Counted from the stretch's first letter, positions 3,172 through 56,832 are shown. The stretch is DNA of 64,000 bases from Candidatus Pacearchaeota archaeon (GCA_050303855.1 JBNLCO010000010.1:124093-188092); one strand, 5' to 3'. Notes: a model not told the origin generated them from the sequence alone. Translations and numbers: made by a program.

Positions 3172-4128
3172 ATGCCAACAAGAAAATCACCAAGAAAAGG
3201 AAGCTTGCAATTTTGGCCTCGAAAGAGGATCAACAAATTTTTGCCTAGAGTTAACTGGAGTGCTATTAATTCTGATAAGAAATTGAAGGGATTTGTTGGA
3301 TATAAGGCAGGGATGGTTTCTGTTGAAGTTAAGGATTTAACTGCCAATTCAATGACTAAAGATAAGAAGATAATTATTCCGGCTACAGTTATTGAATGTC
3401 CTAAGATGAAAATCTTTTCGGTTAGATTCTACAAAAATGGGGTCGTTAAGAAGGATGTTTTAGCTGAACAATTCGACAAGGAACTTAAGAAAAAGGTTAA
3501 GGTTCCAAAAGAGAATAAATTGAAGCTTGATTCTGTAAAAAGTGAGAATTATGATGATGTTTCTGTTATTGCTTATACTGTTGTTAAGAAAACAGGATTG
3601 AAGAAGAAACCAGATATGGCTGAAATTGGTATTTCAGGTTCAAGTGTTGATGAGAAATTAAGTTTTGTTAAAGAGAATTTGAATAAAGAGTTGAGTGTTA
3701 CGGATTTATTCGCTTCAGGAGATTTAGTTGACTTTAGAGGTTTAACTAAAGGTAAAGGTCTTGTTGGTCCTGTAAAGAGATTTGGAATTACATTAAAAGC
3801 TCATAAGTCGGAGAAAGGTGTTAGAAGACCAGGTAATGTTGGTCCGTGGCATCCTGCAAGAGTTACTTTTAGAATCCCTATGGCAGGTCAATTAGGGAAG
3901 TTTACAAGAGTACATTATAATCAAAAAGTTATTGTAACTGGAAATGATGAAGAAGTTAAGAAATCTTTGAAAGCGATAAAGAACTATGGAAATGTTAACA
4001 TGGATTATGTTATTGTTTCTGGTTCAGTTCAAGGTCCAGCAAAGAGACAAGTGTTTATTACTGCTCCTTTGAGAAAAAGTAAAATGTCTGCAAAGAAGAA
4101 TTATGAATTCGGGAGAATATTGAGATAA
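3172..4128 (+). CDS. rpl3: 50S ribosomal protein L3
   Basis: MPTRKSPRKGSLQFWPRKR... is the typical archaeal uL3 N-terminus. Sits at the canonical operon position. Confidence 0.9.
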   Translation: MPTRKSPRKGSLQFWPRKRINKFLPRVNWSAINSDKKLKGFVGYKAGMVSVEVKDLTANSMTKDKKIIIPATVIECPKMKIFSVRFYKNGVVKKDVLAEQFDKELKKKVKVPKENKLKLDSVKSENYDDVSVIAYTVVKKTGLKKKPDMAEIGISGSSVDEKLSFVKENLNKELSVTDLFASGDLVDFRGLTKGKGLVGPVKRFGITLKAHKSEKGVRRPGNVGPWHPARVTFRIPMAGQLGKFTRVHYNQKVIVTGNDEEVKKSLKAIKNYGNVNMDYVIVSGSVQGPAKRQVFITAPLRKSKMSAKKNYEFGRILR

Positions 4129-4129
4129 A

Positions 4130-4375
4130 ATGGATATTGGAGAATCAATGGCGAAGAGAAAAATGATTGAAGAATTTAAGAAGTTAGAAATTGTAGCAGA
4201 AGCATTTTCTGAGGTTAAGGGGAATGTTGCTAAAGACAAAGATCTTGGGATGAGGATTGATGAAACAACAGAATTTCATTATAATATTAAAACAAATTAT
4301 GAAGAAGCAAAGGGAAAATTCGTTGGAGAAGATGGAATGCAATATGCTTTTGAAATAAGGAGATATAACGATTAA
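4130..4375 (+). CDS. hypothetical small protein inserted between L3 and L4
   Basis: 81-aa ORF. TAAAATG junctions on both sides match all neighbouring r-protein genes. No recognisable family. Confidence 0.45.
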   Translation: MDIGESMAKRKMIEEFKKLEIVAEAFSEVKGNVAKDKDLGMRIDETTEFHYNIKTNYEEAKGKFVGEDGMQYAFEIRRYND

Positions 4376-4376
4376 A

Positions 4377-5216
4377 ATGAAAACTAAAACATACGATTTA
4401 ACAGGGAAAGAAAAAGCAGAAATTGCATTACCCAAAGAATTTAGTTCTAAGGTAAGAGAAGATATTGTTTCTAAAGTTCTTGAAGCTGCAAAGAAACATC
4501 AACCTTACTCTCCAAGTCCTGTTGCAGGAAAACAACATTCTGCCAAAGGAAAGATTGTACATAGAAGACATGTTTGGAGAAGTGGTTATGGTAGAGGAGC
4601 ATCAAGAGTACCAAGAAAAATATTCTCACAGAAAGGTTCAAGATTTAATTGGGAAGCTGCAGAAGTTCCATTCGCAAGAGGCGGTATGAGAGCTCACCCT
4701 CCAAAGATAGAACACTTCTTAAAAGAACTTAAGATCAATAAGAAAGAATTAAAGATTGCTTTTGTATCTGCATTGAGTGCAACAGCTTCTGAAAAATATG
4801 TTGTTGATAAATATGCTACAGTAAATAAATTGAATAAAAAAGTGCCATTCATCTTAACTCTTGGAAATACTGAAAACTTGAAAGTTAAAGATTTACTTAA
4901 TGGTTTGAAAGGTATGCTTGGAGAAGAACTTTACAATATTGCAATAAAGAAAAAATCAATTAGGGCTGGAAAAGGAACAATGAGAGGTAGAAAATACAAA
5001 TCAAATGCAGGTATGCTTTTAGTTGTTGGAAAAGATGAAATTGGAAAAGTAAAAACTAAAATGTTTGAAGTTGTTTCGGCTGGAGAACTTGGAGTTACAG
5101 ATCTTGCCCGAGGAGGATTAGGAAGATTAACTGTTTATACTGAAAATTCTGTTAAAGAATTAGAAAATAAGTTTAATGGTAAAACTGAAAAGAAAGTGGA
5201 GGAAAAGAAAAAATGA
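4377..5216 (+). CDS. rpl4: 50S ribosomal protein L4 (uL4) with K/E-rich C-terminal tail
   Basis: HRRHVWRSGYGRGASRVPRK motif region. Position after L3. Confidence 0.85.
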   Translation: MKTKTYDLTGKEKAEIALPKEFSSKVREDIVSKVLEAAKKHQPYSPSPVAGKQHSAKGKIVHRRHVWRSGYGRGASRVPRKIFSQKGSRFNWEAAEVPFARGGMRAHPPKIEHFLKELKINKKELKIAFVSALSATASEKYVVDKYATVNKLNKKVPFILTLGNTENLKVKDLLNGLKGMLGEELYNIAIKKKSIRAGKGTMRGRKYKSNAGMLLVVGKDEIGKVKTKMFEVVSAGELGVTDLARGGLGRLTVYTENSVKELENKFNGKTEKKVEEKKK

Positions 5217-5545
5217 ATAGTGTAGAAATTAAAGTTGTTGAAAATTGGGAAAAACCTGAAGTTTTCAGGACTTTAAAAGAAAAAGATTTGATAAGTGATA
5301 AAGAAGTTGTATTTGAATCCTTCAAGTTGAGAGGAGAAGGAACTTCTTTAATTCATACGCTCCAGAGAGTCAAGCCAGGAATTGTGAAGGTTAAAAAATA
5401 TTATTTTGAATCAGGTAAATTGAGCAGTAACGCAGGAGTGGATTATTGGACCAATTCACTGGATATAGGATATAATCCAGAAGCAAAATCAGATCAAATA
5501 CTTTATGATGCAGAAGATAAATTCCTAAGAGAGGCAGGATTATGA
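5213..5545 (+). CDS. hypothetical small protein inserted between L4 and L23
   Basis: 110-aa ORF with ATGA overlaps at both ends (L4 stop and L23 start). No recognisable family. Confidence 0.45.
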   Translation: MNSVEIKVVENWEKPEVFRTLKEKDLISDKEVVFESFKLRGEGTSLIHTLQRVKPGIVKVKKYYFESGKLSSNAGVDYWTNSLDIGYNPEAKSDQILYDAEDKFLREAGL

Positions 5546-5778
5546 GACCAATAGCAACTGAAAAAGCAGTAATGAAAATTGAAGCAGAGAATGTAATGAC
5601 CTTTGAATTTGATAAAAGAATGAATAAAGAGGACATTAAGAAAGAAATTGAAGAGCTTTTAGATGTTAAAGTTGATTCGGTTAAAACGCAAATAAGAAAG
5701 AACAAGAAAATTGTTTACGCTAAATTAAATAAGAAGAACCTTGCAATTGATCTTGCAACTAAATTAGGAATGATGTAA
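5542..5778 (+). CDS. rpl23: 50S ribosomal protein L23 (uL23)
   Basis: 78 aa, MRPIATEKAVMKIE.. Canonical position before L2. Confidence 0.85.
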   Translation: MRPIATEKAVMKIEAENVMTFEFDKRMNKEDIKKEIEELLDVKVDSVKTQIRKNKKIVYAKLNKKNLAIDLATKLGMM

Positions 5779-5779
5779 A

Positions 5780-6478
5780 ATGGGAAAGAGAATAATACAA
5801 CAGGCACGGGGAAAGGGAAGTTCAACTTATAGAGTTAAGAGAAAAGCTTTCAGTCACAAAATCCAATATCCAAGAGGATTAACTGGAGAAGGAAGAATTG
5901 TAAAGTTATTCTTAACTGGTGGACATAGTGCTCCGCTTGCAAAGATAAACTGGTCTGGAGAGAGTTTTTATGTTCCTGCATTCAAAGGAATGGTTCAAGG
6001 AGAGAAGATTAATTTTGATTCAAAAGAAATTGTTAAAGGAAGTATCCTTGAGTTAGGAGATATTCCACTTAAGACAAAGATATTTTGCATTGAATCGAGA
6101 CCTGGAGATGGTGGAAAGTTCATAAAGACTGCAGGAAGTTCTGCAGAAGTTGTTAGAAGGGTCGGCAAAAATGTTCATGTATTAATGCCGTCGAAAAAAG
6201 AAAAACCTTTTAACCCGAAATGTCGGGCTATTATTGGTGAAGCTGCTGGTCATGGTAGAACAGACAAACCAATAATGAAAGCTGGAAAGCAACATCATAT
6301 TAAGAAAGCAAAAAGTAAATTATGGCCAAGAACAGGTGCATTGAAAGTTAATGCTATCGATCATCCTTTCGGTTCAGGTAGAGGAAAGAACCCTAAGAGC
6401 AAGATTGCAAAGAGAAATTCAGCTCCTGGTCAAAAGGTTGGTTTATTGAGACCAAGAAGGACAGGTAAGAGAAAGTAA
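5780..6478 (+). CDS. rpl2: 50S ribosomal protein L2 (uL2)
   Basis: GKRIIQQARGKGSSTYRV... and ..GGHSAP.. motifs. 232 aa. Confidence 0.9.
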   Translation: MGKRIIQQARGKGSSTYRVKRKAFSHKIQYPRGLTGEGRIVKLFLTGGHSAPLAKINWSGESFYVPAFKGMVQGEKINFDSKEIVKGSILELGDIPLKTKIFCIESRPGDGGKFIKTAGSSAEVVRRVGKNVHVLMPSKKEKPFNPKCRAIIGEAAGHGRTDKPIMKAGKQHHIKKAKSKLWPRTGALKVNAIDHPFGSGRGKNPKSKIAKRNSAPGQKVGLLRPRRTGKRK

Positions 6479-6479
6479 A

Positions 6480-6848
6480 ATGGAAATGAAATTACAAACA
6501 ACTGGAATAAAGTATGAAAATCTAGTTGGAAAAGGATTAGAACTTTTTTGTGAAAGTGCGGTCAATAAAGATGAAAATGTTGTGGGAAGGTATCTTCCTG
6601 GAATTGAGGGACAAGAGATAACCTATTTAGGAAATTTAGGACATAGATTCGGAGAAAGAGATTTATTTGGATTTGAAGAAGACAATAAATTGACTGTCCT
6701 TGTTGGAAACATAAAAGACATTACTGGAAACAGGGCAACGTTAAGCACCTTTGTTCAAAGCATTTCCCCAAATTTTTACGGAACTGAAAATTTGAGTGAT
6801 GAGATTTTAAAACAATGCAAAGAGATTTTGTCAGGAGTAAAAGAATAA
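6480..6848 (+). CDS. hypothetical protein inserted between L2 and S19 (possible divergent small beta-barrel protein)
   Basis: 122-aa ORF with TAAAATG junctions both sides. Weak LVGxxLEL...VVGxxxGIEG pattern faintly reminiscent of RNase P Rpp29-type barrels. Confidence 0.4.
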   Translation: MEMKLQTTGIKYENLVGKGLELFCESAVNKDENVVGRYLPGIEGQEITYLGNLGHRFGERDLFGFEEDNKLTVLVGNIKDITGNRATLSTFVQSISPNFYGTENLSDEILKQCKEILSGVKE

Positions 6849-6849
6849 A

Positions 6850-7254
6850 ATGGTAGATATAGGATCACAAAAGAAACAATTCAAGTATCGAGGCAAAGAT
6901 ATTGAAGAGTTGAAGGCTTTAGATACTCGAGAGGTTGCAAAATACCTTGATTCGAGAGCTAGAAGAACTGTACTTAGAAACTTCCAAGAAATTGAGGATT
7001 TCCTTCAGAGAGCTAAGAGAAAACAATCAAAGAATAAGAAGATTAAAACTCATAAGAGAAAATTGATAGTTGTTCCTCAAATGGTTGGAATGCAAATCCA
7101 AGTACATAACGGAAGAATGTTTATTCCAATTGAGGTTGTCCCGGAGATGATCGGACATTATTTGGGAGAATTTTCATTAACAAGGGCAAAAGCTTCACAT
7201 AGTAAATCAGGAGTTGGTGCTACTAAGGGTAGTAGAGCCAAATCCAAGAAGTAA
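6850..7254 (+). CDS. rps19: 30S ribosomal protein S19 (uS19)
   Basis: HKRKLIVVPQMVGMQIQVHNGRMFIPIEV.. GHYLGEFSLTR motif. Confidence 0.85.
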   Translation: MVDIGSQKKQFKYRGKDIEELKALDTREVAKYLDSRARRTVLRNFQEIEDFLQRAKRKQSKNKKIKTHKRKLIVVPQMVGMQIQVHNGRMFIPIEVVPEMIGHYLGEFSLTRAKASHSKSGVGATKGSRAKSKK

Positions 7255-7259
7255 GTAAA

Positions 7260-7871
7260 ATGACAGAAAAACAATACGCTCCAAGTGCTAAAGAAAAGAA
7301 GATGTCTACAAAGAAAGTAGAATCCCCAGTAGCAGAAGCTCCTAAAAAGGTTGAAGCTAAAGAAAATAAAACTGAAGAGAAAAAAGTTGAAGAAAAGAAA
7401 ACAGAAGTAAAGCAACCTGTTAAAGTTACAAAAGTTAAGAAAGATCTTGCTGTAGTTAATGCAAACAATTCAAAAGTTTCATTAAAATATGCAATAAGCA
7501 TTTGTAAATTCATTAAAGGCAAAAGAATTGGCGATGCGATAAGAGATTTAGAAGCAGTTGTTGTTAAGAAAAAGGCAGTTCCAATGACTGGAGAGTATGC
7601 GCATAAGAAAAGTGTAAAGAAATATGCATCAGGTGCTGGAAAATACCCTGTTAATGCTGCAAAGGCTTTCCTTGTGTTGGTTAAAAGCCTTTTAGGAAAT
7701 GCTAATGCAAATGACATAAATGAACCTGTAATCACTGAATGTATTGCAAACAAAGCCCCCAAACCAATGGGAAGATTTGGAAGATGGGAAAGAAAAAGAT
7801 GCCACATCAAATTGGTTGCAAGAGAAATTAAAGTTAAAGAGAATAAAGCTAAGACAGAGGAAAAGAAATAA
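7260..7871 (+). CDS. rpl22: 50S ribosomal protein L22 (uL22) with ~60-aa K/E/A/P-rich N-terminal extension
   Basis: Core NNSKVSLKYAISICKFIKGKRIGDAIRDLE.. after a low-complexity lysine-rich N-terminus. Confidence 0.85.
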   Translation: MTEKQYAPSAKEKKMSTKKVESPVAEAPKKVEAKENKTEEKKVEEKKTEVKQPVKVTKVKKDLAVVNANNSKVSLKYAISICKFIKGKRIGDAIRDLEAVVVKKKAVPMTGEYAHKKSVKKYASGAGKYPVNAAKAFLVLVKSLLGNANANDINEPVITECIANKAPKPMGRFGRWERKRCHIKLVAREIKVKENKAKTEEKK

Positions 7872-7872
7872 A

Positions 7873-8565
7873 ATGGAAGAAAAACAAACTGTAAAATTCA
7901 AGAAGGAAGACTTTGCTATAAAGGAAATCATAAGAAAGACAATTGGAAAGGGAAAGATGAGCAGAGTTAGAATTGAATATACTCCGGTTGGAGAAAAAGT
8001 AATAATCTCCACAGATAAACCAGGTTTGGTTATTGGAAGGGGTGGAGAGAGTTTGAACGAATTAAGTGATATGCTTAGAAAGAATTTCAAATTCCAAAAT
8101 TTACATATTGAAATTGAAGAAATAAAAGAACCTGAATTTGACTCTCAAACTATTGCAGATGAGATTGCTTTAGGTTTAGAGAGAGCTGGACCATTAAAGT
8201 TCAAGGTTATTGCTTACAGAACACTTGAGAAAGTGATGAAAGCGGGAGCATTAGGTTGTGAAATAAGATTAAGCGGAAAACTTCCAAGTTCAAGAGCTAA
8301 GACATGGAGATTCGCTCAAGGATATTTAAAGAAAACAGGAGACTCTGCAAAGGTTGTAAGTCGTGCTCAAGCAAGAGCTGAGACTAAGCCGGGAACTGTG
8401 GGAGTTAAGGTTAGTATATTATCACCGCATGCAATATTGAAAGATAGAATAAAGATCAACGAAGATTTGATAAACCAGTTGAAAGAAAACGCTGAAAAAT
8501 TAAATGAAGTTCCAGAGAAGAAAACTAAGAAAAAAGCTAAGACTGCTAAGGAGAGTAAAAAATGA
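7873..8565 (+). CDS. rps3: 30S ribosomal protein S3 (uS3)
   Basis: KH-domain GRGGESLNEL. True start taken at the TAAAATG junction at 7873 rather than the longer track ORF starting 7744. Confidence 0.9.
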   Translation: MEEKQTVKFKKEDFAIKEIIRKTIGKGKMSRVRIEYTPVGEKVIISTDKPGLVIGRGGESLNELSDMLRKNFKFQNLHIEIEEIKEPEFDSQTIADEIALGLERAGPLKFKVIAYRTLEKVMKAGALGCEIRLSGKLPSSRAKTWRFAQGYLKKTGDSAKVVSRAQARAETKPGTVGVKVSILSPHAILKDRIKINEDLINQLKENAEKLNEVPEKKTKKKAKTAKESKK

Positions 8566-8756
8566 AACACTCAGAAGTAAAGAAATTAAGTAAGACAGAC
8601 AGAGATAAGAAATTAAAAGAACTAAAGTTGGAATTAGTTAAAGAAAACGTATCAAAGCAAGGCGGAAATAAATCTGCTAAAATAAGAAAAATAATCGCAA
8701 GAATACACACACTCAACAACATGGAAAATAAACCCAAGGAGTTGAATAACAAATAA
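8562..8756 (+). CDS. rpl29: 50S ribosomal protein L29 (uL29)
   Basis: 64 aa, helical, ..LKELKLELVKEN... Canonical position. ATGA overlap with S3. Confidence 0.75.
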   Translation: MKHSEVKKLSKTDRDKKLKELKLELVKENVSKQGGNKSAKIRKIIARIHTLNNMENKPKELNNK

Positions 8757-8760
8757 AACA

Positions 8761-9060
8761 ATGGAAATAGATCCAAAAACAGGATTGCCAGTTCAGGCAA
8801 TGGAGTGGGAAGACCTTGCAAAGGGTTCCCAAAAAATACGGGTAACGACCGATAAAAAAAGATACGGAAAGATCGTTACTCTAGTGAGTGGTTTCGACAA
8901 AGGAATCGACATAAAGAAAACCGCAAAGGCATTGAAGAATGAACTTGCGTGTGGCGGGACCTTTAAGGACGATGCAGTTGAACTGCAAGGAGACCACACA
9001 AAGAAAGTAAAGCAAGTCCTTGTAAAAATGGGATTTGACGAAAGCTCCATAGAAGACTGA
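8761..9060 (+). CDS. translation initiation factor SUI1 (eIF1/aSUI1)
   Basis: 99 aa, ..KIRVTTDKKRYGKIVTLVSGFD...ACGGT..ELQGDH.. is the SUI1 fold signature. Archaeal operon position between L29 and S17. Confidence 0.8.
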   Translation: MEIDPKTGLPVQAMEWEDLAKGSQKIRVTTDKKRYGKIVTLVSGFDKGIDIKKTAKALKNELACGGTFKDDAVELQGDHTKKVKQVLVKMGFDESSIED

Positions 9061-9078
9061 AGAGGTGAAAAATAAAAA

Positions 9079-9423
9079 ATGGAAAGTAAGAAAATGAAAA
9101 AAACAGAAGTAAAAGAATCAAAAATAGTTGGAACTGAAAAGAGTATAAACCCAAGAGGAAAGATCTTCGAGGGAGTTGTAACAGCAAAGTTCCACAAGAG
9201 AATAACAATCGAATTCGAAAGAATGGTTTATATTAGAAAGTATGAAAGATATGCAAAGTCGAAGACAAAAATCCATGCAAGACTCCCAGTTTCAATGGAA
9301 AACGAAGTTAATGTTGGAGATTTGATAAGAGTTCAAGAGTGTAGACCTTTAAGTAAGATAATCCATTTCATCGTGGTTAAGAAATTAAAAGATGCTTCAG
9401 AAATTTTAGGAGGAAAGAAATAA
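9079..9423 (+). CDS. rps17: 30S ribosomal protein S17 (uS17)
   Basis: ..GVVTAKFHKRITIEFERMVYIRKYERY..HARLP.. motifs. Confidence 0.85.
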   Translation: MESKKMKKTEVKESKIVGTEKSINPRGKIFEGVVTAKFHKRITIEFERMVYIRKYERYAKSKTKIHARLPVSMENEVNVGDLIRVQECRPLSKIIHFIVVKKLKDASEILGGKK

Positions 9424-9424
9424 G

Positions 9425-9826: not shown

Positions 9827-9827
9827 A

Positions 9828-10972: not shown

Positions 10973-10973
10973 A

Positions 10974-11492: not shown

Positions 11493-11493
11493 A

Positions 11494-11760
11494 ATGGCAA
11501 ATAAAATAACTTTAAAGAATAGGGAGAAATTGAGGGAAGAGCTTGAGAAGTTAGTTGTACAAGTTGATGAGATAAACGACTTCATGGGGCAGTTACCTCA
11601 TAACAATCATGGGCAGGCAACTAGGAGCTTAAACCCTAAGAAAGGTGAATATTTAAGTCACTTTGATGGAAATAGCGAAGGCATAGTTGGAAAATATCGT
11701 TCAAAAAATGGAGAGGTTTATACTATTAGCGTATCAAAAGAATACGGAGGTGGAAAATAA
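11494..11760 (+). CDS. hypothetical small protein inserted between L5 and S14
   Basis: 88-aa ORF with TAAAATG junctions both sides. No recognisable family. Confidence 0.45.
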   Translation: MANKITLKNREKLREELEKLVVQVDEINDFMGQLPHNNHGQATRSLNPKKGEYLSHFDGNSEGIVGKYRSKNGEVYTISVSKEYGGGK

Positions 11761-11761
11761 A

Positions 11762-11992
11762 ATGACAGCAAGCAATTACGAAAAGATGTTGAAGCAATTA
11801 AGAAGCAAACCTGCAAAGATGCAGAGATACTTGAAGCACAATAAGCCAAAAACTAGAACTACTGGTAAGGCTTTGAGAAGATGTGAACAGACGGGACAAT
11901 TCGGAGGACACATAAAAATGTACGGATTGAACTTATGTAGACAGGCATTCAGAGAAATAGCGGAGGAATTAGGATTTAAGAAATACTCTTAA
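11762..11992 (+). CDS. rps14: 30S ribosomal protein S14 (type Z, zinc-binding)
   Basis: ..RRCEQTGQFGGHIKMYGLNLCRQ.. zinc-knuckle. Start chosen at the TAAAATG junction (11762), not the longer track ORF starting 11687. Confidence 0.8.
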   Translation: MTASNYEKMLKQLRSKPAKMQRYLKHNKPKTRTTGKALRRCEQTGQFGGHIKMYGLNLCRQAFREIAEELGFKKYS

Positions 11993-12006
11993 ATTGCAAA
12001 AGTAAA

Positions 12007-12387
12007 ATGAGTCACGATGTTGTAGCAGATGGATTGAATATGTTGAGAAATGCAGCTGTAGCTGGAAAAGAAACCGTGAAGATAAATAGAATCTCAAATG
12101 TTTTGATAGAAGTTCTTAAAATAATGAAGCAAGATGGAGCAATAAAGAAATATAAAATAGATTCTGAAGATAAATCTCTTACAGTTACAATAGACAAATT
12201 AGATGAATGTAAGGCAATAAAACCAAGATTCACTTGTGATGTTTCGCAAATAGAGAACTATAGAAGAAGATATCTTCCAGCAAGAGATGTTGGAACAATG
12301 ATACTTTCTACAAACAAAGGGTTAATGACTCACAAAGAGGCAACAGAAGAAAATATTGGAGGATGCCTAATTGCATATTTCTATTAA
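12007..12387 (+). CDS. rps8: 30S ribosomal protein S8 (uS8)
   Basis: MSHDVVADGLNMLRNA.. is a canonical uS8 N-terminus. Confidence 0.9.
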   Translation: MSHDVVADGLNMLRNAAVAGKETVKINRISNVLIEVLKIMKQDGAIKKYKIDSEDKSLTVTIDKLDECKAIKPRFTCDVSQIENYRRRYLPARDVGTMILSTNKGLMTHKEATEENIGGCLIAYFY

Positions 12388-12388
12388 A

Positions 12389-12931
12389 ATGAAAAAACCT
12401 TTATCAAAAATAATTGAAATTCCTGAAGGAGTGGAAGTTGCTCTAGATGGAAGAGATGTTAAGGTAAAAGGCCCAGAAGGAGAGATAACTAAAGATTTTG
12501 ATTTTGGGACTTTAGATATTGTTATCAAAGATGGAAAGATAGAATTAAGCCATAAAAGTGCAACAAAGACTGAAAAGAGAACAATGAATACTTTTGCAGC
12601 GCATATACTAAACATGATTAAAGGTGTTCAAGAGAAATTCGAATATACGCTTAAGGTTGCTTCAAGCCACTTCCCTATGACTGTGAAGGTAGAAGGAAAC
12701 ATTGCAACAATAAAGAATTATTACGGAGAAAAAACTGATAGAAAAACAAAAATTCCGAAAGGAGTTGAGGTAGAAGTTAACAAAGATTCAATTGTTGTTA
12801 AGTCTGTTGATAAAGAACTTGCAGGTCAGGCTGCAGCAAATTTCGAGAACGCTACAAAAGTTAGAAATAGGGATAGAAGAATTTTCCAAGATGGAATTTA
12901 CATAACTAAAAAACACGATAAAGCTATTTAA
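12389..12931 (+). CDS. rpl6: 50S ribosomal protein L6 (uL6)
   Basis: ..IPEGVEVALDGRDVKVKGPEG.. Start at the TAAAATG junction. Confidence 0.85.
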   Translation: MKKPLSKIIEIPEGVEVALDGRDVKVKGPEGEITKDFDFGTLDIVIKDGKIELSHKSATKTEKRTMNTFAAHILNMIKGVQEKFEYTLKVASSHFPMTVKVEGNIATIKNYYGEKTDRKTKIPKGVEVEVNKDSIVVKSVDKELAGQAAANFENATKVRNRDRRIFQDGIYITKKHDKAI

Positions 12932-12936
12932 TTAAA

Positions 12937-13341
12937 ATGACCGAAAAGAAAAAACCAAATTTCAAGAGAAAGGACTCACACAAGTATTCTAAGCTTGGAA
13001 AGTCAAGAAAGAATAAACAGAAGTGGAAGAAACCTACTGGAAGAGATAACAAAATGCGTGAGAAGAAGAAGGGTCATCCAGCGGTTGTTTCAATAGGGTA
13101 TAAGACAAACACTTCAATAAGAGGAAAAGTGGAAGAAAAGAAACCAGTTTATGTTTACAACATCAAGGATTTGGAAAATGTAAACACAAATGAAATTGTA
13201 ATTGTTGGAAATGTTGGGATGAAGAAGAAAGTAGAAATTACAAAGGTTGCAAAAGAAAAGAAAATCAAAATAAAAAACATTAATGAGAAAAAATTAATGA
13301 AGAAAGTTAAGAAAAAAACAACTAAGGAGAGTAAAAAATGA
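12937..13341 (+). CDS. rpl32e: 50S ribosomal protein L32e
   Basis: ..KWKKPTGRDNKMR.. eL32 motif. Archaea/eukaryote-specific. Confidence 0.8.
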   Translation: MTEKKKPNFKRKDSHKYSKLGKSRKNKQKWKKPTGRDNKMREKKKGHPAVVSIGYKTNTSIRGKVEEKKPVYVYNIKDLENVNTNEIVIVGNVGMKKKVEITKVAKEKKIKIKNINEKKLMKKVKKKTTKESKK

Positions 13342-13805
13342 ATTTGAGATCAAAGAAGGAGCTAGCTGCAAGAACATTCAAGGTTGGTAAAGAAAGAATT
13401 ACTTTCATTAAAGAAAGATTGGATGAAGTAAAAGAAGCTATAACTAAACAAGATATGATTGGTTTGGAGAAAGACGGAGCAATAAAGGTAAAGGAAGTAA
13501 GTGGGAGAAAGAAGGTACATACTGTAAGAAATAGAAGCCCAGGGAACGTAAGAAAGAAGGTTAACACTAGAAAAAGGGACTATGTTATCATGACTAGAAA
13601 GCTTAGACAACACGTTAGACACCTTAAATCCAATGGAGAATTAAGCCCTGAAGAAGTTAAAGAAATAAGAAAAAGAATAAGAAACAAAGGATTTAAGAGT
13701 AAAGCACATATGAAAGAACAGATAGCAACAAAGAATTATTCCTCTGTTCAAGTATCAGGAAAATCAAAAAATAAAAAAACTAAATCAAGTAAAAAGAAAA
13801 AATGA
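13338..13805 (+). CDS. rpl19e: 50S ribosomal protein L19e with K-rich tail
   Basis: MNLRSKKELAARTFKVGKERI.. is a typical eL19 N-terminus. Confidence 0.8.
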   Translation: MNLRSKKELAARTFKVGKERITFIKERLDEVKEAITKQDMIGLEKDGAIKVKEVSGRKKVHTVRNRSPGNVRKKVNTRKRDYVIMTRKLRQHVRHLKSNGELSPEEVKEIRKRIRNKGFKSKAHMKEQIATKNYSSVQVSGKSKNKKTKSSKKKK

Positions 13806-14290
13806 AAGTACAAAAACGAAGAAGAAGAGAAAATAAGACAGACTATCTTAAGAGAATGAAGCTTCTTAAGAGCGCAAAGCCAAGAGTAGTATTCAGAAAA
13901 ACAAACAAATATGTTATTGCGCAATATGTTGTTAGTGATGAAGCTAAAGATAAAGTTGTATTTGGAGTAAGTTCAAAAGATTTGTTAAAGAAAGGTTGGG
14001 ATGAAAATGCTAAAGGATCTTTGAAGTCAATACCTGCAACATATTTAACAGGGTATTATGCTGGTAAAAAAATCTTGAAAGAAGGGCTTGAAACTCCAAT
14101 AGTGGATTTAGGTATGATAAAAACTTTACATAAAACAAAGGTTTTTGCTTTTATCAAAGGTTTAATTGATTCTGGAGTAGAAATTGGATCAAAAGAAGAA
14201 GCATTCCCTGAAGAAGAAAGAATAAATGGAGAAAGTTTAAAGAACAAGGTAGACATTCAAAAAATTAAATCAAGTTTAGATAAAGAATAA
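13802..14290 (+). CDS. rpl18: 50S ribosomal protein L18 (uL18)
   Basis: ..RRRRENKTDYLKRMKLLKS..PRVVFRKTNKYVIAQ.. motifs. Confidence 0.8.
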   Translation: MKVQKRRRRENKTDYLKRMKLLKSAKPRVVFRKTNKYVIAQYVVSDEAKDKVVFGVSSKDLLKKGWDENAKGSLKSIPATYLTGYYAGKKILKEGLETPIVDLGMIKTLHKTKVFAFIKGLIDSGVEIGSKEEAFPEEERINGESLKNKVDIQKIKSSLDKE

Positions 14291-14291
14291 A

Positions 14292-15158
14292 ATGACCGAA
14301 AAAGAACTTAATAAAAAAACTGCAGAAGCATACAAAGATAATTTGAATACTGACGCGGAAGAAGCTACAGAGAAAATGATAAAGGATGAAGAAAATGATG
14401 AATATGCAGAAGTTCCTGAAGAAGTTTTAGATGAGAAAGAACTTAAGGAATTAAAAGAGATGGAAAAGGACACTAAGAAGCCTGGAAGGGACAGAAGAGA
14501 TAGCGCTCCTGCAGAAGCATGGTCTCCTATTACAAAGTTAGGGGTTGCTGTAAAAGAAGGAACAATCAAAGATATTGATGAAATTATTGAGAAAAAAATG
14601 AAGATCCTTGAACCAGAAATAGTTGATAAATTAATACCTGTTGAATCAGATTTAATTTCTATAGGGCAATCTAAAGGTAAGTTTGGTGGTGGAAAAAGGA
14701 GAGCATGGAGACAGACTCAAAGAAAAAAGAAGGAAGGAAATGTTGCTACATTCTCAGCTATGGCCGTTATTGGCGATGGTAATGGTCATGTGGGTATTGG
14801 AACAGGAAAGTCTACAGAGACTCTTCCAGCAAGAGATAAAGCTACAAGAAAAGCTAAAATTAATGTAATAAAAATTATTAGGGGGGATGGAAGTTTCGAT
14901 TCTGTTGGAGGAGGAAATACAAGTATTCCATTCAAAGTTTCAGGTCAAGCAGGAAGTGTAAGAATTACTTTAATGCCTGCTGCTCCAGGTACAGGTCTTG
15001 TTGCAGGGGATGAAATGAAGAAGATACTTAGAATTGCAGGAATAAAAGATATATACTCAAAAACAGAAGGAAAATTGTCTACAAAGTTTAACCTTGCAAA
15101 AGCAACAATAGATGCACTTAAGAAAACAAATCCTTTGTATAAGAGGGCAAAACAATAA
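14292..15158 (+). CDS. rps5: 30S ribosomal protein S5 (uS5) with acidic/K-rich N-terminal extension
   Basis: ..GGGKRRAWRQTQRKKKEGN...AVIGDGNGHVGIGTGKS.. motifs. Confidence 0.9.
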   Translation: MTEKELNKKTAEAYKDNLNTDAEEATEKMIKDEENDEYAEVPEEVLDEKELKELKEMEKDTKKPGRDRRDSAPAEAWSPITKLGVAVKEGTIKDIDEIIEKKMKILEPEIVDKLIPVESDLISIGQSKGKFGGGKRRAWRQTQRKKKEGNVATFSAMAVIGDGNGHVGIGTGKSTETLPARDKATRKAKINVIKIIRGDGSFDSVGGGNTSIPFKVSGQAGSVRITLMPAAPGTGLVAGDEMKKILRIAGIKDIYSKTEGKLSTKFNLAKATIDALKKTNPLYKRAKQ

Positions 15159-15159
15159 A

Positions 15160-15522
15160 ATGAAAATCGCAGTAATAAGGATAAAAGGAATGGTTGGACT
15201 AAAAACAGACATAGCTGAGACTTTGGATAGATTAAGATTGAGAAGAAAATATGCGTGTGTGGTTATAGAAGATACACCAGAGAATTTAGGAATGATAAAG
15301 AAGGTTGGAGACTTTGTTGCACATGGCCCTATTGATGAAAAAACCTACAAAGAATTAGTTGATAAGAGAGGAAAGAAAGATTCTGAAGGCAAACTTAAAC
15401 CATTCTTTAGATTGCACCCTGCTAGAGGCGGAATGGAAACTAAAAAACACTTTGGAGTGGGTAAAGGAGTTTTAGGAAATAATAAAGATAAAATAAATGA
15501 ATTAATAGGGAGGATGTTGTGA
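15160..15522 (+). CDS. rpl30: 50S ribosomal protein L30 (uL30)
   Basis: MKIAVIRIKGMVGLKTDIAETLDRLRLRRK.. Start taken at the internal Met at the TAAAATG junction. Confidence 0.8.
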   Translation: MKIAVIRIKGMVGLKTDIAETLDRLRLRRKYACVVIEDTPENLGMIKKVGDFVAHGPIDEKTYKELVDKRGKKDSEGKLKPFFRLHPARGGMETKKHFGVGKGVLGNNKDKINELIGRML

Positions 15523-15523
15523 A

Positions 15524-15742
15524 GTGTCCGAGTACTATAAGGGCAAAAAAATTAATGGCGAGCTTATTTGCGGAGTGAGTGATCAGGGAAACTACAATCC
15601 TATAATTACAACCGTTTCAAAGTCAGAGGACGAGAATTTAAGGAATACTTATGTTCTCAAAGAAGACATCCTTGAGTTTGTCAAGGCCGATCCGCTAACA
15701 GACAAACAAGCTAGAAATTACATAAACAAATCAAAAAGATAA
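15524..15742 (+). CDS. hypothetical small protein inserted between L30 and L15 (GTG start)
   Basis: 72-aa ORF with one Cys. GTG start one base after the L30 stop and a TAAAATG junction into L15. No recognisable family. Confidence 0.35.
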   Translation: MSEYYKGKKINGELICGVSDQGNYNPIITTVSKSEDENLRNTYVLKEDILEFVKADPLTDKQARNYINKSKR

Positions 15743-15743
15743 A

Positions 15744-16235
15744 ATGGCGCAAAGAACACATAAAAGAAAAAAATCAACAAGATACCATGGAAGGAATATG
15801 GGTACTTCTAGCAATGGTTCTAGAAAAACACATAGAAGTTCAGGTAATAAAGGTGGAACGGGATTATCTGGTACTGGAAAGAGAGCAGACCATAAGAAAA
15901 CATTGATAAACAAATTATACGGAAATAATTACTTTGGGAAACAAGGAATTACCTCTAAGAAGACTCAGAGAGATAAGAGATTAAGAATAACTCTTTCTCA
16001 AATAATGAATAACCTTGAAAGCTATGGAAAAAAGACTGCAAAAGGTTGGGAAATTGATTTAAGCAAGTACAAAATACTTGGTAAAATTGAAGTTAAGGAA
16101 AAATTAATAATAAAGGCTCTTGAAGCATCAAAAGGAGCAATTGAATCGGTTAAGAAATCTGGTGGAGAGATAGTTTTGCCTGTTCCTAAAAAGAAGGTTG
16201 AAGTCAAAAGTTCCGACGATGGCAAAGAAGAATAG
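15744..16235 (+). CDS. rpl15: 50S ribosomal protein L15 (uL15)
   Basis: ..HKRKKSTRYHGRNMGTSSNG..GGTGLSGTGKRADHKK.. motifs. Confidence 0.85.
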   Translation: MAQRTHKRKKSTRYHGRNMGTSSNGSRKTHRSSGNKGGTGLSGTGKRADHKKTLINKLYGNNYFGKQGITSKKTQRDKRLRITLSQIMNNLESYGKKTAKGWEIDLSKYKILGKIEVKEKLIIKALEASKGAIESVKKSGGEIVLPVPKKKVEVKSSDDGKEE

Positions 16236-16266
16236 TTTTAAAAACACTCTTTCTTAATTCTATACT

Positions 16267-17661
16267 ATGGCAAATCTTACGAAGATATTCTCTTTAATTC
16301 CTGAAGTTAGGAATCCAGATGAAAAGAAGCTAGCTTTTAATGTGAAGCTTAAGTGGACACTTGTTGTATTGATAGGATTTTTTATTTTAGCAAACATACC
16401 TTTGTTTGGTTTGACGAATAATGCTTTGGAGAGATTCCAATATTTAGCTATAATTTTAGGGACAGATTTTGGTTCAATAATTTCTTTAGGTATTGGTCCG
16501 ATCGTTATGGCTTCGATTATATTGCAGTTGTTAACGGGAGCGGGTATTTTAAACATAAATACAAACACTGCAGAAGGAAAGAAGTTTTTCCAAGGAGTTC
16601 AGAAATTAATGGTGTTCTTCTTTATATTATTTGAAGCCACAGTTTATGTATTAATGAAAGGTCTTGAAGCTGCCCCTGGACTTGCAGGAATAGTTATCTT
16701 CCAACTTATAATTGGAGGTATTGCGATTTACTATATGAATGAACTTTGTGAAAAATGGGGATTCGGTTCGGGAGTTAGTTTGTTCATTGCAGCGGGAGTA
16801 TCTTGGAATCTATTTACTGGTGCATTCCAGTTCATAAATCAGCAAGGTAGAAACTGTCTTGCAGATTTCTCGGGAACTGCATGTTCAGGAAAGATTTTCG
16901 TATTAATACAATCAATTGTGAATAAGTACCCTGTTGAATTTATGTCCGCACTTGGGGCTATTGTAGCAACGGTTGCTATATTTTTGTTGGTAGTTTGGGC
17001 CCAATCGCTTAAGGTAGAAATTCCTTTGAGTTTTGGAAGAATTAGAGGATATGGTGTAAAGTGGCCTTTGAGTTTCTTCTACGCTTCAGTTATCCCTGTT
17101 ATTTTAACTGCTGCTTTAGTTGCAAACATACAACTATTTGGAGGGCTTTTGGAGAATTGGAGAGGTCATGCAACATTCCTAGGTCATTTCGTAAATGGTC
17201 AGGCAGTGTCCGGTTTAGGGTTCTGGCTTGGGCATACGAATTTGCTTGAATTGGCAATAAGAGGAGGATTCTTACCTAGGTTCTTAGTCCAAGGATTGAC
17301 GCACATAATATTCTATACTGGACTTGCAATGTTGTTCTCGATATTTTGGGTTAAAAGTTCTGGAATGGACTCAAAAGCTCAAGCTCAAAAGATATCTTCA
17401 TCAGGATTACAAGTTGCAGGTTTCAGACAAGATAACAGAGTTTTGGAAAGCATATTAGATAGATATATAATGCCTTTAACAGTTATGGGAGGAGCGGCAA
17501 TAGGATTGCTAGCTGCTTTAACAGACTTGTTAGGTGCTATGGTTTCAGGAACAGCGATACTTTTGGTTATCATGATAATGTTCCAATTCTATCAGAGTAT
17601 TGCACAACAACACATGACAGATATGAATCCTGCTATGAGGAAGTTTATGGGAAATGCATAA
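16267..17661 (+). CDS. secY: preprotein translocase subunit SecY
   Basis: 464 aa, 10 TM. ..LGIGPIVMASIILQLL.. plug/TM2 region. Canonical position after L15. Confidence 0.9.
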   Translation: MANLTKIFSLIPEVRNPDEKKLAFNVKLKWTLVVLIGFFILANIPLFGLTNNALERFQYLAIILGTDFGSIISLGIGPIVMASIILQLLTGAGILNINTNTAEGKKFFQGVQKLMVFFFILFEATVYVLMKGLEAAPGLAGIVIFQLIIGGIAIYYMNELCEKWGFGSGVSLFIAAGVSWNLFTGAFQFINQQGRNCLADFSGTACSGKIFVLIQSIVNKYPVEFMSALGAIVATVAIFLLVVWAQSLKVEIPLSFGRIRGYGVKWPLSFFYASVIPVILTAALVANIQLFGGLLENWRGHATFLGHFVNGQAVSGLGFWLGHTNLLELAIRGGFLPRFLVQGLTHIIFYTGLAMLFSIFWVKSSGMDSKAQAQKISSSGLQVAGFRQDNRVLESILDRYIMPLTVMGGAAIGLLAALTDLLGAMVSGTAILLVIMIMFQFYQSIAQQHMTDMNPAMRKFMGNA

Positions 17662-41440: not shown

Positions 41441-41442
41441 AA

Positions 41443-51432: not shown

Positions 51433-51443
51433 TTGAAATTCTA

Positions 51444-51531
51444 TGCGCGGACCGGGGATCGAACCCGGATCAACTGGTCTCTTCAGACAACCTGTGGAAG
51501 CCAGTTATTCTAACCATTAAACTATCCACGC
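51444..51531 (-). tRNA. tRNA-Gly (anticodon UCC) with a 16-nt canonical intron between positions 37/38
   Basis: Reverse-complement folds into a cloverleaf. Acceptor GCGUGGA/UCCGCGC, discriminator A. T-arm CCGGG-UUCGAUC-CCCGG. Anticodon stem ACUGG/CCAGU enclosing CUUCCA|CAGGUUGUCUGAAGAG|A. Confidence 0.8.
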
Positions 51532-53243: not shown

Positions 53244-53264
53244 GCCCTTATTTCTTGAAAAATT

Positions 53265-54961: not shown

Positions 54962-54968
54962 TTATAAA

Positions 54969-55851: not shown

Positions 55852-55852
55852 G

Positions 55853-56320: not shown

Positions 56321-56321
56321 A

Positions 56322-56831: not shown

Positions 56832-56832
56832 A

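What the first reader, a model, noticed from the sequence alone, without database searches (positions are those of the whole stretch)
3172..17661. Near-universal TAA-A-ATG / ATGA stop-start coupling with no Shine-Dalgarno spacing
Of ~28 consecutive gene junctions in the operon, at least 13 are (A)AATAAAATG(R), with the stop TAA, one A, then the start. At least 6 are ATGA overlaps. The same junction recurs in the glycosylation island (31346, 41443) and the S13-S4-S11 block (56322, 56833). This implies termination-reinitiation coupling as the dominant initiation mode for internal cistrons. It also makes TAAAATG a useful genome-specific gene-start predictor.
Basis: seen in the sequence. Interest (0 to 1): 0.5.

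Follow-up and report, generated by a model that had tools for sequence, protein, structure and literature searches.

The report
Stop-start gene junctions in archaeal ribosomal operon
In this small-genome archaeon, nearly every gene of a 28-gene ribosomal-protein operon begins one base after, or four bases inside, the previous gene's stop codon, a lineage-specific version of the well-known trick of passing ribosomes directly from one gene to the next.

Summary
From L3 to L15 (3172-16235) there are 27 junctions. Of these, 14 are in-frame TAA-A-ATG, two more have a 1-nt gap (TAAGATG, TGAAGTG), and 6 are ATGA overlaps. TAAAATG occurs 20 times on this strand against 4.7±2.2 in shuffles.

The window comes from a Pacearchaeota-type DPANN archaeon (GCA_050302495.1). 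In the same operon of 80 relatives, +1 (88% TAAAATG) and -4 are the two commonest distances. Gap 0 is almost absent.

The "no Shine-Dalgarno" reading is only half right. ATGA and TAATG overlaps carry GGAG-type motifs inside the upstream gene (64-69% against 14% control). TAAAATG junctions mostly lack them in relatives (19%), but about half have one in this genome (8/15).

All internal starts share an AAA context at -3..-1. TAAAATG is the closest position for a TAA stop that keeps this context. First genes instead have a TATA box near -30, so they look leaderless.

The best reading is termination-reinitiation coupling with two preferred geometries. That makes it a clade-specific variant of a known mechanism, of modest interest.

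The operon also holds five orphan ORFs, and about 280 such inserts occur in the relatives. That side observation may be the more unusual one.

The parts
3172..16235 (+). Run of 28 tightly abutted ORFs: L3, orf81, L4, orf110, L23, L2, orf122, S19, L22, S3, L29, SUI1, S17, L14, L24, S4e, L5, orf88, S14, S8, L6, L32e, L19e, L18, S5, L30, orf72, L15. No recognisable internal promoter.
   Evidence: Pfam; junction listing; no TATA-like motif at -38..-26 of any internal start.
4126..4132 (+). TAAAATG junction, L3 stop to orf81 start (in frame, gap +1)
4373..4379 (+). TAAAATG junction, orf81 > L4; AGGAG lies about 19 nt upstream of the ATG
5776..5782 (+). TAAAATG junction, L23 > L2
6476..6482 (+). TAAAATG junction, L2 > orf122
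6846..6852 (+). TAAAATG junction, orf122 > S19
7869..7875 (+). TAAAATG junction, L22 > S3
9824..9830 (+). TAAAATG junction, L14 > L24 (no SD-like match)
10970..10976 (+). TAAAATG junction, S4e > L5
11490..11496 (+). TAAAATG junction, L5 > orf88
11758..11764 (+). TAAAATG junction, orf88 > S14. It is preceded by GGAGGTG at 11746-11752, the strongest SD-like match (-14.2 kcal/mol).
12385..12391 (+). TAAAATG junction, S8 > L6
14288..14294 (+). TAAAATG junction, L18 > S5
15156..15162 (+). TAAAATG junction, S5 > L30
15740..15746 (+). TAAAATG junction, orf72 > L15
9421..9427 (+). TAAGATG junction, S17 > L14 (gap +1, spacer G); TAGGAGG upstream (-9.9 kcal/mol)
15520..15526 (+). TGAAGTG junction, L30 > orf72 (gap +1, GTG start). 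It is uncertain because orf72 has a weak coding score and the depositor did not call it.
5213..5216 (+). ATGA overlap, L4 > orf110; GGAGG embedded upstream
5542..5545 (+). ATGA overlap, orf110 > L23
8546..8565 (+). ATGA overlap, S3 > L29, within the 20-mer CTAAGGAGAGTAAAAAATGA (SD + A-run + ATGA). The same 20-mer occurs at 13322-13341.
10322..10325 (+). ATGA overlap, L24 > S4e; AAGGAGAA upstream
13322..13341 (+). ATGA overlap, L32e > L19e, second copy of the 20-mer CTAAGGAGAGTAAAAAATGA
13802..13805 (+). ATGA overlap, L19e > L18 (no SD-like match)
7252..7262 (+). TAAGTAAAATG, S19 > L22. The true stop lies 5 nt before the ATG, and a second, out-of-frame TAA completes the TAAAATG string.
11990..12009 (+). 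S14 > S8, gap 14; out-of-frame TAAAATG at the start
12929..12939 (+). TAATTAAAATG, L6 > L32e, gap 5; out-of-frame TAAAATG
9058..9081 (+). SUI1 > S17, the only spacer long enough to hold a free SD. GAGGTGA lies at 9062-9068, 10 nt before the ATG (-11.7 kcal/mol against an assumed canonical anti-SD).
16236..16269 (+). L15 > SecY spacer (31 nt) with TTTTAAAAA about 31 nt before the ATG. This is a likely promoter for a leaderless SecY transcript and marks the end of the coupled run.
17659..17665 (+). TAAGATG junction, SecY > EMC3/TMCO1-like gene (an ATG at -8 is an alternative start)
55849..56835 (+). DUF655 > S13 (TAAGATG at 55849), S13 > S4 (TAAAATG at 56318) and S4 > S11 (TAAAATG at 56829)
41438..41444 (+). 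TAAAATG junction, NTP-transferase/GHMP-kinase gene > unknown 290-aa ORF
31342..31349 (+). TAAAATGA, GT10 glycosyltransferase > HAD hydrolase. This is an ATGA overlap, and its TAA is out of frame.

Best explanation
The L3-L15 run is most likely one long polycistronic message of a DPANN (Pacearchaeota-type) archaeon. Its internal cistrons are most likely started by ribosomes that have just terminated on the gene before (termination-reinitiation).

Internal start sites are marked by two things:
- immediate proximity to the upstream stop codon;
- an A-rich context, AAA at -3..-1.

Two arrangements satisfy both, and they dominate:
- AAA-ATGA, where the TGA stop overlaps the ATG and the upstream protein ends in Lys (AAA);
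- TAA-A-ATG, the closest non-overlapping position for the preferred TAA stop that still leaves A at -3, -2 and -1.

Gap 0 would put T at -3, and TAATG puts T at -2. Both are disfavoured.

Overlap junctions are usually helped by a GGAG-type Shine-Dalgarno motif written into the last codons of the upstream gene. TAAAATG junctions usually do without one in the clade, although about half carry one in this genome.

First genes of transcription units are instead leaderless, with a TATA box about 30 nt before the ATG.

What is shown: the geometry, the contexts, the motif distributions and their conservation across relatives. What is inferred: co-transcription and the dependence of downstream translation on upstream termination.
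For: Geometry
- 22 of 27 junctions are +1 or -4.
- In the r-operon of 80 relatives the shares are +1 22.8-24.9% (88% of them TAAAATG), -4 18.6-24.1%, -1 about 6%, gap 0 1.3% and +2 4.5%.

Start context
- A at -3/-2/-1 is 72-93% in every class of internal start where those positions are free. At internal in-frame ATGs it is 36-49%.
- About 3 of 34 leader starts in the window have AAA, as read.

Stop codon
- TAA makes up 97-100% of stops in the 0/+1/+2 classes, against 67% when the gap exceeds 10 nt.

SD motif
- The fraction with a match <= -6 kcal/mol is 69% (-4), 64% (-1), 19% (+1) and 14% (control).
- The contrast holds within orthologous junctions: 67% against 26%, odds ratio 5.9.
- In the window it is 5/6 (-4) and 8/15 (+1) against an 18% baseline.

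Promoters
- A TATA-like motif peaks at -29 only for the 11-40 nt gap class (38%). The +1 class has 12% and the control 6%.
- None lies inside L3-L15, but one precedes SecY and one precedes the prefoldin gene.

Other
- TAAAATG inside coding sequence is not avoided more than control heptamers. This fits a signal that only works after in-frame termination.
- Junction regions fold less than controls.
- Experiments in Haloferax volcanii show strict coupling at -4, -1 and a native +1 pair, lost by about 20 nt. They also show that SD is helpful but not essential (PMC6728339, PMC10666635).
Against: - There is no transcript or translation data for this organism. Co-transcription and coupling are inferred from sequence alone.
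- The 16S rRNA 3' end was not available, so the anti-SD sequence had to be assumed canonical.
- About half of the +1 junctions in this genome carry an SD-like match, so de novo SD-led initiation cannot be excluded for them.
- The statistics from relatives are not phylogenetically independent.
- Ten of the 27 junctions involve five orphan ORFs, whose translation is itself unproven. orf72 in particular has a weak coding score.
- The reason SD tracks junction geometry is not explained.
Confidence: 0.6

Rival explanations
1. Internal cistrons are started de novo by free small subunits that bind a Shine-Dalgarno motif embedded in the 3' end of the upstream gene. The tight spacing is then only a by-product of compaction.
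For: - GGAG-type motifs are enriched at -15..-10 of ATGA and TAATG junctions.
- In the window 5/6 ATGA and 8/15 +1 junctions have one, against an 18% baseline.
- The only roomy spacer, SUI1>S17, holds GAGGTGA.
- L1 in the left flank has AGGAG before its ATG.
Against: - The +1 class in 80 relatives is near background (19% against 14%), and 7 of 15 +1 junctions in the window have no match.
- The 11-40 nt gap class, which has room for an SD, shows none (14%).
- Free SD-led initiation would not by itself explain the sharp +1 and -4 peaks or the near absence of gap 0.
- In haloarchaea, embedded SDs act in reinitiation and not in de novo initiation (PMC6728339).
Confidence: 0.2
2. The junction pattern has no function. 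It follows from AT-rich composition, a preference for TAA stops and deletion pressure in a streamlined genome.
For: - The genome has about 33% GC.
- The window-wide TAAAATG count is not above shuffles.
- The +1 fraction rises weakly as GC falls (rho -0.25).
- Short spacers with TAA are common in prokaryotes (PMC2784483).
Against: - There are 20 TAAAATG against 4.7 expected in the operon.
- Gap 0 is about 20-fold rarer than gap +1, and gap +3 is also far rarer.
- The spacer base is A in 88% of +1 junctions.
- TAA is 97% of stops, against 67% at loose junctions.
- AAA at -3..-1 is absent from leader starts and from internal ATGs.
- SD presence co-varies with junction geometry within orthologous junctions.
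Confidence: 0.12
3. Each gene is transcribed separately from a promoter inside the preceding gene and is translated as a leaderless mRNA.
For: - Leaderless architecture is the rule for first genes here, with TATA about 30 nt before the ATG.
- Promoters inside operons are known in archaea.
Against: - No TATA-like motif lies at -38..-26 of any internal start in L3-L15.
- The +1 class in relatives has 12% against 6% in controls, compared with 38% in the 11-40 nt class.
- Position -1 is A at internal starts but mostly a pyrimidine at leader starts.
Confidence: 0.04
4. The pattern is an annotation artefact: the true starts lie elsewhere and the ATG after TAA is coincidental.
For: The depositor's calls differ at S14, L30 and L15 and omit orf72. 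I also chose starts by proximity.
Against: - Relatives with other junction types start within 2 codons of the same aligned residue in 67-84% of cases, with a mode of 0.
- Most independent gene calls agree with mine.
- Pfam domains begin at or near residue 1 for many of these proteins.
Confidence: 0.02

Closest known systems
[quoted passage not shown] 2019, PMC6728339; Huber et al. 2023, PMC10666635)
   Same: - Co-directional genes have stop-start distances inside the -8..+6 window.
- ATGA overlaps carry an SD in the 3' end of the upstream gene.
- A native +1 pair (HVO_0685/0686) was shown to be coupled.
- Leaderless first genes combined with SD use at overlaps matches their 'third pattern' (haloarchaea, Crenarchaeota I).
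   Different: - Their survey of 1,695 species found -4 and -1 by far the most common everywhere. It included no Pacearchaeota or Woesearchaeota.
- Here +1 is as common as or commoner than -4, and -1 is minor.
- The +1 class is almost always the single heptamer TAAAATG, and it is largely SD-free in the clade.
Archaeal 'group D' start architecture of GeneMarkS-2 (PMC6028130): a promoter box about 26 nt before leaderless first genes, and an RBS for genes inside operons
   Same: First genes in the window have a TATA-like box about 27-35 nt before the ATG. Internal genes use a different signal.
   Different: For the largest class of internal genes the signal is an abutting TAA stop plus AAA, rather than an RBS at 6-8 nt.
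Kozak-like A-rich start context of SD-poor Bacteroidetes (Baez et al. 2019, PMC6847099; A-rich motif in PMC6028130 group B)
   Same: A is strongly preferred just upstream of the start codon, most of all at -3, and SD reliance is low for that class.
   Different: - That system is bacterial and applies to all genes.
- It is not tied to an upstream stop codon.
- In the present clade SD is clearly used at overlap junctions.
SD-scarce Nanoarchaeota (Nanoarchaeum equitans, Ca. Nanopusillus acidilobi; PMC10783764)
   Same: It is the same phylum-level group in GTDB naming, with few SD-led genes and many leaderless mRNAs.
   Different: Those reports concern overall SD percentages and loss of CCUCC. Here GGAG motifs are about 10-fold enriched at overlap junctions, which implies that a CCUCC-type anti-SD is retained.
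Stop-start reinitiation signals of eukaryotic viruses (UAAUG or AUGA with an upstream 18S-complementary element), recalled from general knowledge and not checked here
   Same: Stop and start codons overlap or abut, and a helper element within the upstream ORF pairs with small-subunit rRNA.
   Different: The domain and the factors differ. There is no evidence of homology, so this is an analogy only.

Membership tests
Termination-reinitiation (TeRe) translational coupling | Co-directional genes whose stop and start lie within about -8 to +6 nt | tested here: met
   25 of 27 junctions in L3-L15 lie between -4 and +5. Of these, 16 are +1 and 6 are -4.
Termination-reinitiation (TeRe) translational coupling | Both genes lie on one transcript, with no promoter or terminator between them | tested here: inconclusive
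   No TATA-like motif lies at -38..-26 of internal starts, and there is no room for a terminator. No transcript data are available.
Termination-reinitiation (TeRe) translational coupling | Translation of the downstream gene depends on translation and termination of the upstream gene | not testable with these tools
   This needs reporter constructs with premature stops, or ribosome profiling.
Termination-reinitiation (TeRe) translational coupling | An SD motif in the 3' end of the upstream gene (frequent, not essential) | tested here: met
   In relatives, ATGA and TAATG junctions reach 64-69% against 14% in controls. In the window the figures are 5/6 (-4) and 8/15 (+1). The +1 class in relatives reaches only 19%.
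SD-led de novo initiation at internal cistrons | A motif complementary to the 16S 3' end, 5-10 nt before the start, at most internal genes | tested here: not met
   It is absent at 7 of 15 +1 junctions in the window and at about 81% of +1 junctions in relatives. It is also absent from the 11-40 nt spacer class.
SD-led de novo initiation at internal cistrons | The 16S rRNA ends in a CCUCC-type anti-SD | not testable with these tools
   No 16S gene lies in the window, the 10-kb left flank or the 80 loci. It is inferred only from the GGAG/GGAGG enrichment.
Leaderless initiation (archaeal first genes) | A TATA/BRE box about 25-30 nt upstream of the ATG | tested here: not met
   This is not met for internal genes of L3-L15. 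It is met for SecY, the prefoldin gene and most first genes in the window.
Kozak-like A-rich start context | Position-specific A enrichment just upstream of true starts, relative to internal ATGs | tested here: met
   A at -3/-2/-1 is 72-93% in classes where those positions are free, against 36-49% at internal ATGs. TAA is forced to 97-100% when the stop falls in that zone.
Kozak-like A-rich start context | The context quantitatively tunes the initiation rate | not testable with these tools
   This needs expression measurements.

The most novel reading that the evidence does not exclude
UAAAAUG would be a self-sufficient, SD-independent reinitiation module that evolved in Pacearchaeota-type DPANN archaea. 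In it the UAA stop doubles as part of a Kozak-like AAA start context. Because it needs only seven bases and no promoter or rRNA-complementary element, any ORF can be spliced into a highly expressed operon. This would have turned the ribosomal-protein supercluster into a landing pad for orphan genes. About 280 unrelated extra ORFs sit between r-protein genes in 80 genomes, and five sit in this window. All are joined by +1 or -4 junctions.
Probability: 0.3. Interest if true: 0.6.

Novelty: new variant of a known kind. Interest (0 to 1): 0.35.

Why it matters
- Gene finding: it gives a concrete, testable rule for calling gene starts in a large uncultured archaeal clade. The rule is leaderless first genes, and AAA-context starts abutting TAA or overlapping TGA for the rest. 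Standard SD-based start models will misplace such starts, and the depositor's calls at S14, L30 and L15 already differ.
- The role of SD in reinitiation: orthologous junctions have switched between ATGA, TAATG and TAAAATG across relatives, and SD presence switches with them. This is a natural comparative experiment on when reinitiation needs rRNA pairing, a question that reporter work left gene-specific and unexplained.
- Gene gain: if such low-information junctions make it easy to add cistrons, they may help explain how orphan genes are born and expressed in streamlined symbiont genomes.

Tried and rejected
- 16S 3' end. No SSU rRNA lies in the window (Rfam), in the 80 related loci (regex) or in the 10-kb left flank. 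The look-up for the right flank failed. The anti-SD sequence therefore had to be assumed.
- Whole-window enrichment of TAAAATG. The count is 40 against 33 expected, so a purely k-mer argument fails and only the positional test works.
- Avoidance of TAAAATG inside coding sequence, against codon shuffles. One frame is enriched and the other depleted, but control heptamers behave alike. There is no specific signal, and I use this only as weak support.
- T at -4 as part of a motif in its own right. In relatives with gaps of 3-10 nt, T at -4 is 31%, about background. The four out-of-frame TAAAATG strings in the window are probably chance or relics of stop shifts.
- Literature search for the literal heptamer. 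It returned only primers and unrelated hits.
- Supplementary Table S4 of PMC10666635. It has per-COG medians only and no per-phylum distance histogram to compare +1 frequencies.
- Junction duplication on insertion. Inserted ORFs have the same junction type on both sides in 67% of cases, against 55% for conserved genes. This is suggestive but not significant.
- Context of the orf110 homologue P0123. The contigs are under 900 bp and uninformative.
- My first greedy longest-ORF gene call picked antisense ORFs in the purine-rich operon. I replaced it with codon-usage scoring.

Full report
**What the region is**

Window 3172-18376 (+) is an archaeal ribosomal-protein supercluster. Its gene order is L3, L4, L23, L2, S19, L22, S3, L29, SUI1, S17, L14, L24, S4e, L5, S14, S8, L6, L32e, L19e, L18, S5, L30, L15, SecY and an EMC3/TMCO1-like gene (Pfam). 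Five further ORFs without any Pfam match are wedged between conserved genes.

The window is 100% identical to NCBI assembly GCA_050302495.1, contig JBNLBP010000001.1 (268 kb). S4e homologues and 80 related genomic loci are labelled Pacearchaeota, Woesearchaeota or Nanoarchaeota, so the source is a DPANN archaeon. GC content is about 33%.

**Checking the observation**

I listed every junction and verified the strings. From L3 to L15 there are 28 ORFs and 27 junctions:
- 14 are in-frame TAA-A-ATG.
- 1 is TAAGATG and 1 is TGAAGTG, both with gap +1.
- 6 are ATGA overlaps.
- 5 have gaps of 4, 5, 5, 14 and 18 nt.

On the + strand of 3172-16235, TAAAATG occurs 20 times against 4.7±2.2 in 1000 dinucleotide-preserving shuffles. 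Seventeen of the 20 sit at gene starts. Over the whole window and both strands the heptamer is not enriched (40 against 33), so the signal is positional.

The start calls are credible:
- The depositor's own annotation agrees for most genes.
- For genes whose window start is a +1 junction, relatives that use other junction types begin within 2 codons of the same aligned residue in 67-84% of cases, with a mode of 0.

The sites cited outside the operon also hold. S13>S4 and S4>S11 are TAAAATG, and DUF655>S13 is TAAGATG. The NTP-transferase/GHMP-kinase gene is joined to its neighbour by TAAAATG. The site at 31342 is an ATGA overlap whose TAA is out of frame. The L1-L10-orf105-P1 operon just left of the window has two more TAAAATG junctions.

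Outside r-protein clusters tight junctions are a minority. In the window about 8-10 of 37 same-strand pairs are tight. Among pairs outside the operon, 76% have gaps above 12 nt.

**Is it a property of the lineage?**

In the orthologous operon of 80 relatives (S4e 51-63% identical) the distance distribution has two sharp modes:

| Distance | Share of junctions |
|---|---|
| +1 | 22.8-24.9% |
| -4 | 18.6-24.1% |
| -1 | about 6% |
| +2 | 4.5% |
| 0 | 1.3% |
| +3 | 0.9% |

Of the +1 junctions, 88% are exactly TAAAATG. The +1 class outnumbers -4 in 31 of 64 loci, and -4 outnumbers +1 in 25. The window ranks fourth for +1 use.

The largest published survey covered 1,695 species. It found -4 and -1 by far the most common everywhere, with only a small phylum-specific component (PMC10666635). 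Its species list contains no Pacearchaeota or Woesearchaeota.

**Shine-Dalgarno**

The motif can, however, lie inside the upstream gene.

In relatives, 4- and 5-mers of AGGAGGTGATC peak at -15..-10 before ATGA and TAATG starts. A 4-mer is present in 74% and 70% of these, against 27% at internal ATGs, and a 5-mer in 48% and 40% against 6%. The enriched words are GGAGA, AGGAG, GGAGG and GAGGA, about 10-fold over control.

I also scored duplex energy against an assumed canonical tail, GAUCACCUCCU. The fraction at <= -6 kcal/mol was:

| Junction class | Fraction with SD-like match |
|---|---|
| -4 | 69% |
| -1 | 64% |
| +2 | 40% |
| +1 | 19% |
| 11-40 nt gap | 14% |
| control | 14% |

The contrast survives a comparison within orthologous junctions that have switched type among relatives. 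Overlap junctions score 67% and +1 junctions 26%, with an odds ratio of 5.9.

In this genome 5 of 6 ATGA junctions and 8 of 15 +1 junctions pass the threshold, against an 18% baseline in the same genes (p=0.001 and p=0.002). Two ATGA junctions share the identical 20-mer CTAAGGAGAGTAAAAAATGA. The one roomy spacer, SUI1>S17, holds GAGGTGA.

"No SD" is therefore wrong for the overlaps and for half of the +1 junctions here. It is a fair description of the TAAAATG class across the clade.

**Start context**

Every class of internal start whose -3..-1 positions are free shows A at 72-93% there. Internal ATGs show 36-49%. First genes of transcription units lack this context: about 3 of 34 have AAA, and -1 is mostly a pyrimidine. 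They carry instead a TTTAAA/TTTATA box about 27-35 nt upstream, the signature of leaderless mRNAs (compare group D in PMC6028130).

When the stop codon falls within this zone it is TAA in 97-100% of cases, against 67% at loose junctions.

This gives a simple account of the geometry. Gap 0 puts T at -3 and TAATG puts T at -2. TAA-A-ATG is therefore the closest non-overlapping arrangement that keeps AAA. AAA-ATGA is the overlapping arrangement that does so, which is why upstream proteins at ATGA junctions tend to end in Lys-Lys.

T at -4 is not enriched when it is free (31%). The selected unit is thus AAA-ATG next to a stop, not the heptamer itself.

**Rival readings**

- Separate leaderless transcripts. 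A TATA-like motif peaks at -29 in the 11-40 nt gap class (38%) but not in the +1 class (12%, control 6%). None lies inside L3-L15, whereas SecY and the prefoldin gene each have one.
- Pure composition or compaction. This does not explain the gap-0 trough, the A spacer, the forced TAA, or the way SD co-varies with geometry.
- A stand-alone internal entry signal. TAAAATG inside coding sequence is not avoided more than control heptamers. This is weak evidence, but it fits a signal that needs in-frame termination.
- mRNA structure. Junction regions are predicted to be less structured than controls, which fits any initiation model.

**Mechanism, and how sure**

The best reading is termination-reinitiation on one long transcript. 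It has two optimised junction designs and optional SD assistance. Experiments in Haloferax volcanii support the principle. Coupling there is strict at -4, -1 and a native +1 pair, and it collapses by about 20 nt. SD helps but is not essential (PMC6728339, PMC10666635).

Nothing here shows coupling directly in this organism, and the 16S tail could not be read. I put this reading at about 0.6. The main rival is SD-led de novo initiation, at least for the junctions that carry an SD.

**Novelty**

Tight stop-start coupling in r-protein operons, and SD motifs embedded in upstream genes, are established. Three things appear not to have been described:
- a clade in which +1 rivals or beats -4;
- a +1 class that is almost always one heptamer built from TAA plus an AAA context;
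- a +1 class that largely dispenses with SD, while overlaps in the same operons keep it.

This is a new variant of a known kind and of modest interest.

**Side observation**

The r-protein supercluster of this clade is full of extra ORFs.
- The window has five: orf81, orf110, orf122, orf88 and orf72.
- The 80 relatives have 278 inserted ORFs of at least 35 aa at almost every junction, 1-21 per locus. Most are joined to the upstream gene by +1 (104) or -4 (103).
- 196 of the 304 ORFs found, a count that also includes unlabelled L29 genes, have no BLASTP relative among each other. A few small families sit at different junctions in different genomes.
- About 90% of 150 scanned have no Pfam match. 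The main exception is an RNase_T-like exonuclease between L4 and L23.
- orf122 has no relative among 5.8 billion proteins. orf110 has five distant ones among 1.8 billion representatives.
- Codon usage in the annotated frame resembles that of real genes, except for orf72.

Whether low-information coupling junctions make this operon an easy place to add genes is speculation, but it can be tested.

Noticed in passing
window 4130-4375, 5213-5545, 6480-6848, 11494-11760, 15524-15742 (+): Five ORFs (81, 110, 122, 88 and 72 aa) with no Pfam match are wedged between conserved r-protein genes (L3|L4, L4|L23, L2|S19, L5|S14, L30|L15). Each is joined by TAAAATG or ATGA on both sides. orf122 is an ORFan among 5.8 billion proteins. 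orf110 has only 5 distant relatives among 1.8 billion representatives. orf72 has a GTG start and a weak coding score, and the depositor did not call it.
   Followed up: partly
L003-L082, r-protein operon (+ strand of each locus): The relatives carry 278 extra ORFs of at least 35 aa between r-protein genes, 1-21 per locus, at nearly every junction. Most are mutually unrelated and about 90% lack a Pfam match. A few small families occur at different junctions in different genomes, which looks like re-insertion. Flanking junction types agree in 67% of inserts against 55% for conserved genes, which is not significant.
   Followed up: partly
L013:3655-4332, L015:3758-4408, L023:4767-5477 and about 10 other loci, between L4 and L23: A 199-237 aa RNase_T / Rv2179c-like 3'-5' exonuclease gene sits between L4 and L23 in 13 relatives. 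It is the only sizeable conserved insert family. This window has the unrelated orf110 at the same position.
   Followed up: no
window 8546-8565 and 13322-13341 (+): The identical 20-mer CTAAGGAGAGTAAAAAATGA (SD, A-run and ATGA) ends both S3 and L32e. Both proteins therefore end in ...KESKK. The C-terminal tails seem to be shaped by the downstream start signal.
   Followed up: partly
window, upstream of 16267, 18419, 19753, 20650, 21674, 26324(-), 26377, 37062(-), 37174, 39168(-), 42352, 54347(-), 54707, 57355: Most first genes have a TTTAAA/TTTATA-type box about 27-35 nt before the ATG, often preceded by AAACCC or CCC, and a pyrimidine at -1. This points to widespread leaderless transcription.
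   Followed up: partly
window 7260-7871 (L22) and 14292-15158 (S5): L22 (203 aa) and S5 (288 aa) have long Lys/Glu-rich N-terminal extensions ahead of the Pfam domain. The L22 domain starts at residue 68 and the S5 domain at residue 140.
   Followed up: no
window 8562-9423: No RNase P protein (Rpp29) gene follows L29, where many archaea have one. SUI1 sits there and is followed directly by S17.
   Followed up: no
window 51444-51531 (-): ARAGORN reports an 88-nt tRNA with an unassignable anticodon ('tc' at position 34), and Rfam also calls a tRNA there. It may be an intron-containing or otherwise atypical tRNA. It also overlaps the 5' end of the open frame 50539-51504.
   Followed up: no
window 53264-53379 (+): A 5S rRNA gene stands alone, with no 16S or 23S anywhere in the 64-kb window or in the 10-kb left flank. 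The rRNA genes are therefore unlinked.
   Followed up: no
L083 16685-18845 (left flank of the window, - strand of the locus): The L1-L10-P1 operon also contains an extra 105-aa ORF between L10 and P1. It uses TAAAATG twice and TAAAAATG once, the last preceded by GGAGGGAGG. L1 itself has AGGAG 10-14 nt before its ATG.
   Followed up: partly
window 7252-7262, 11990-12009, 12929-12939, 54962-54971: In four starts the real upstream stop lies 5-14 nt away, yet an out-of-frame TAA still completes TAAAATG. These may be relics of stop-codon shifts or chance, since T at -4 is not enriched in relatives.
   Followed up: partly
L080 (JAHYJW010000002.1): The record is titled 'Patescibacteria group bacterium' but carries an archaeal S4e-containing r-protein operon 54% identical to the window's. 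The MAG is probably mislabelled or chimeric.
   Followed up: no
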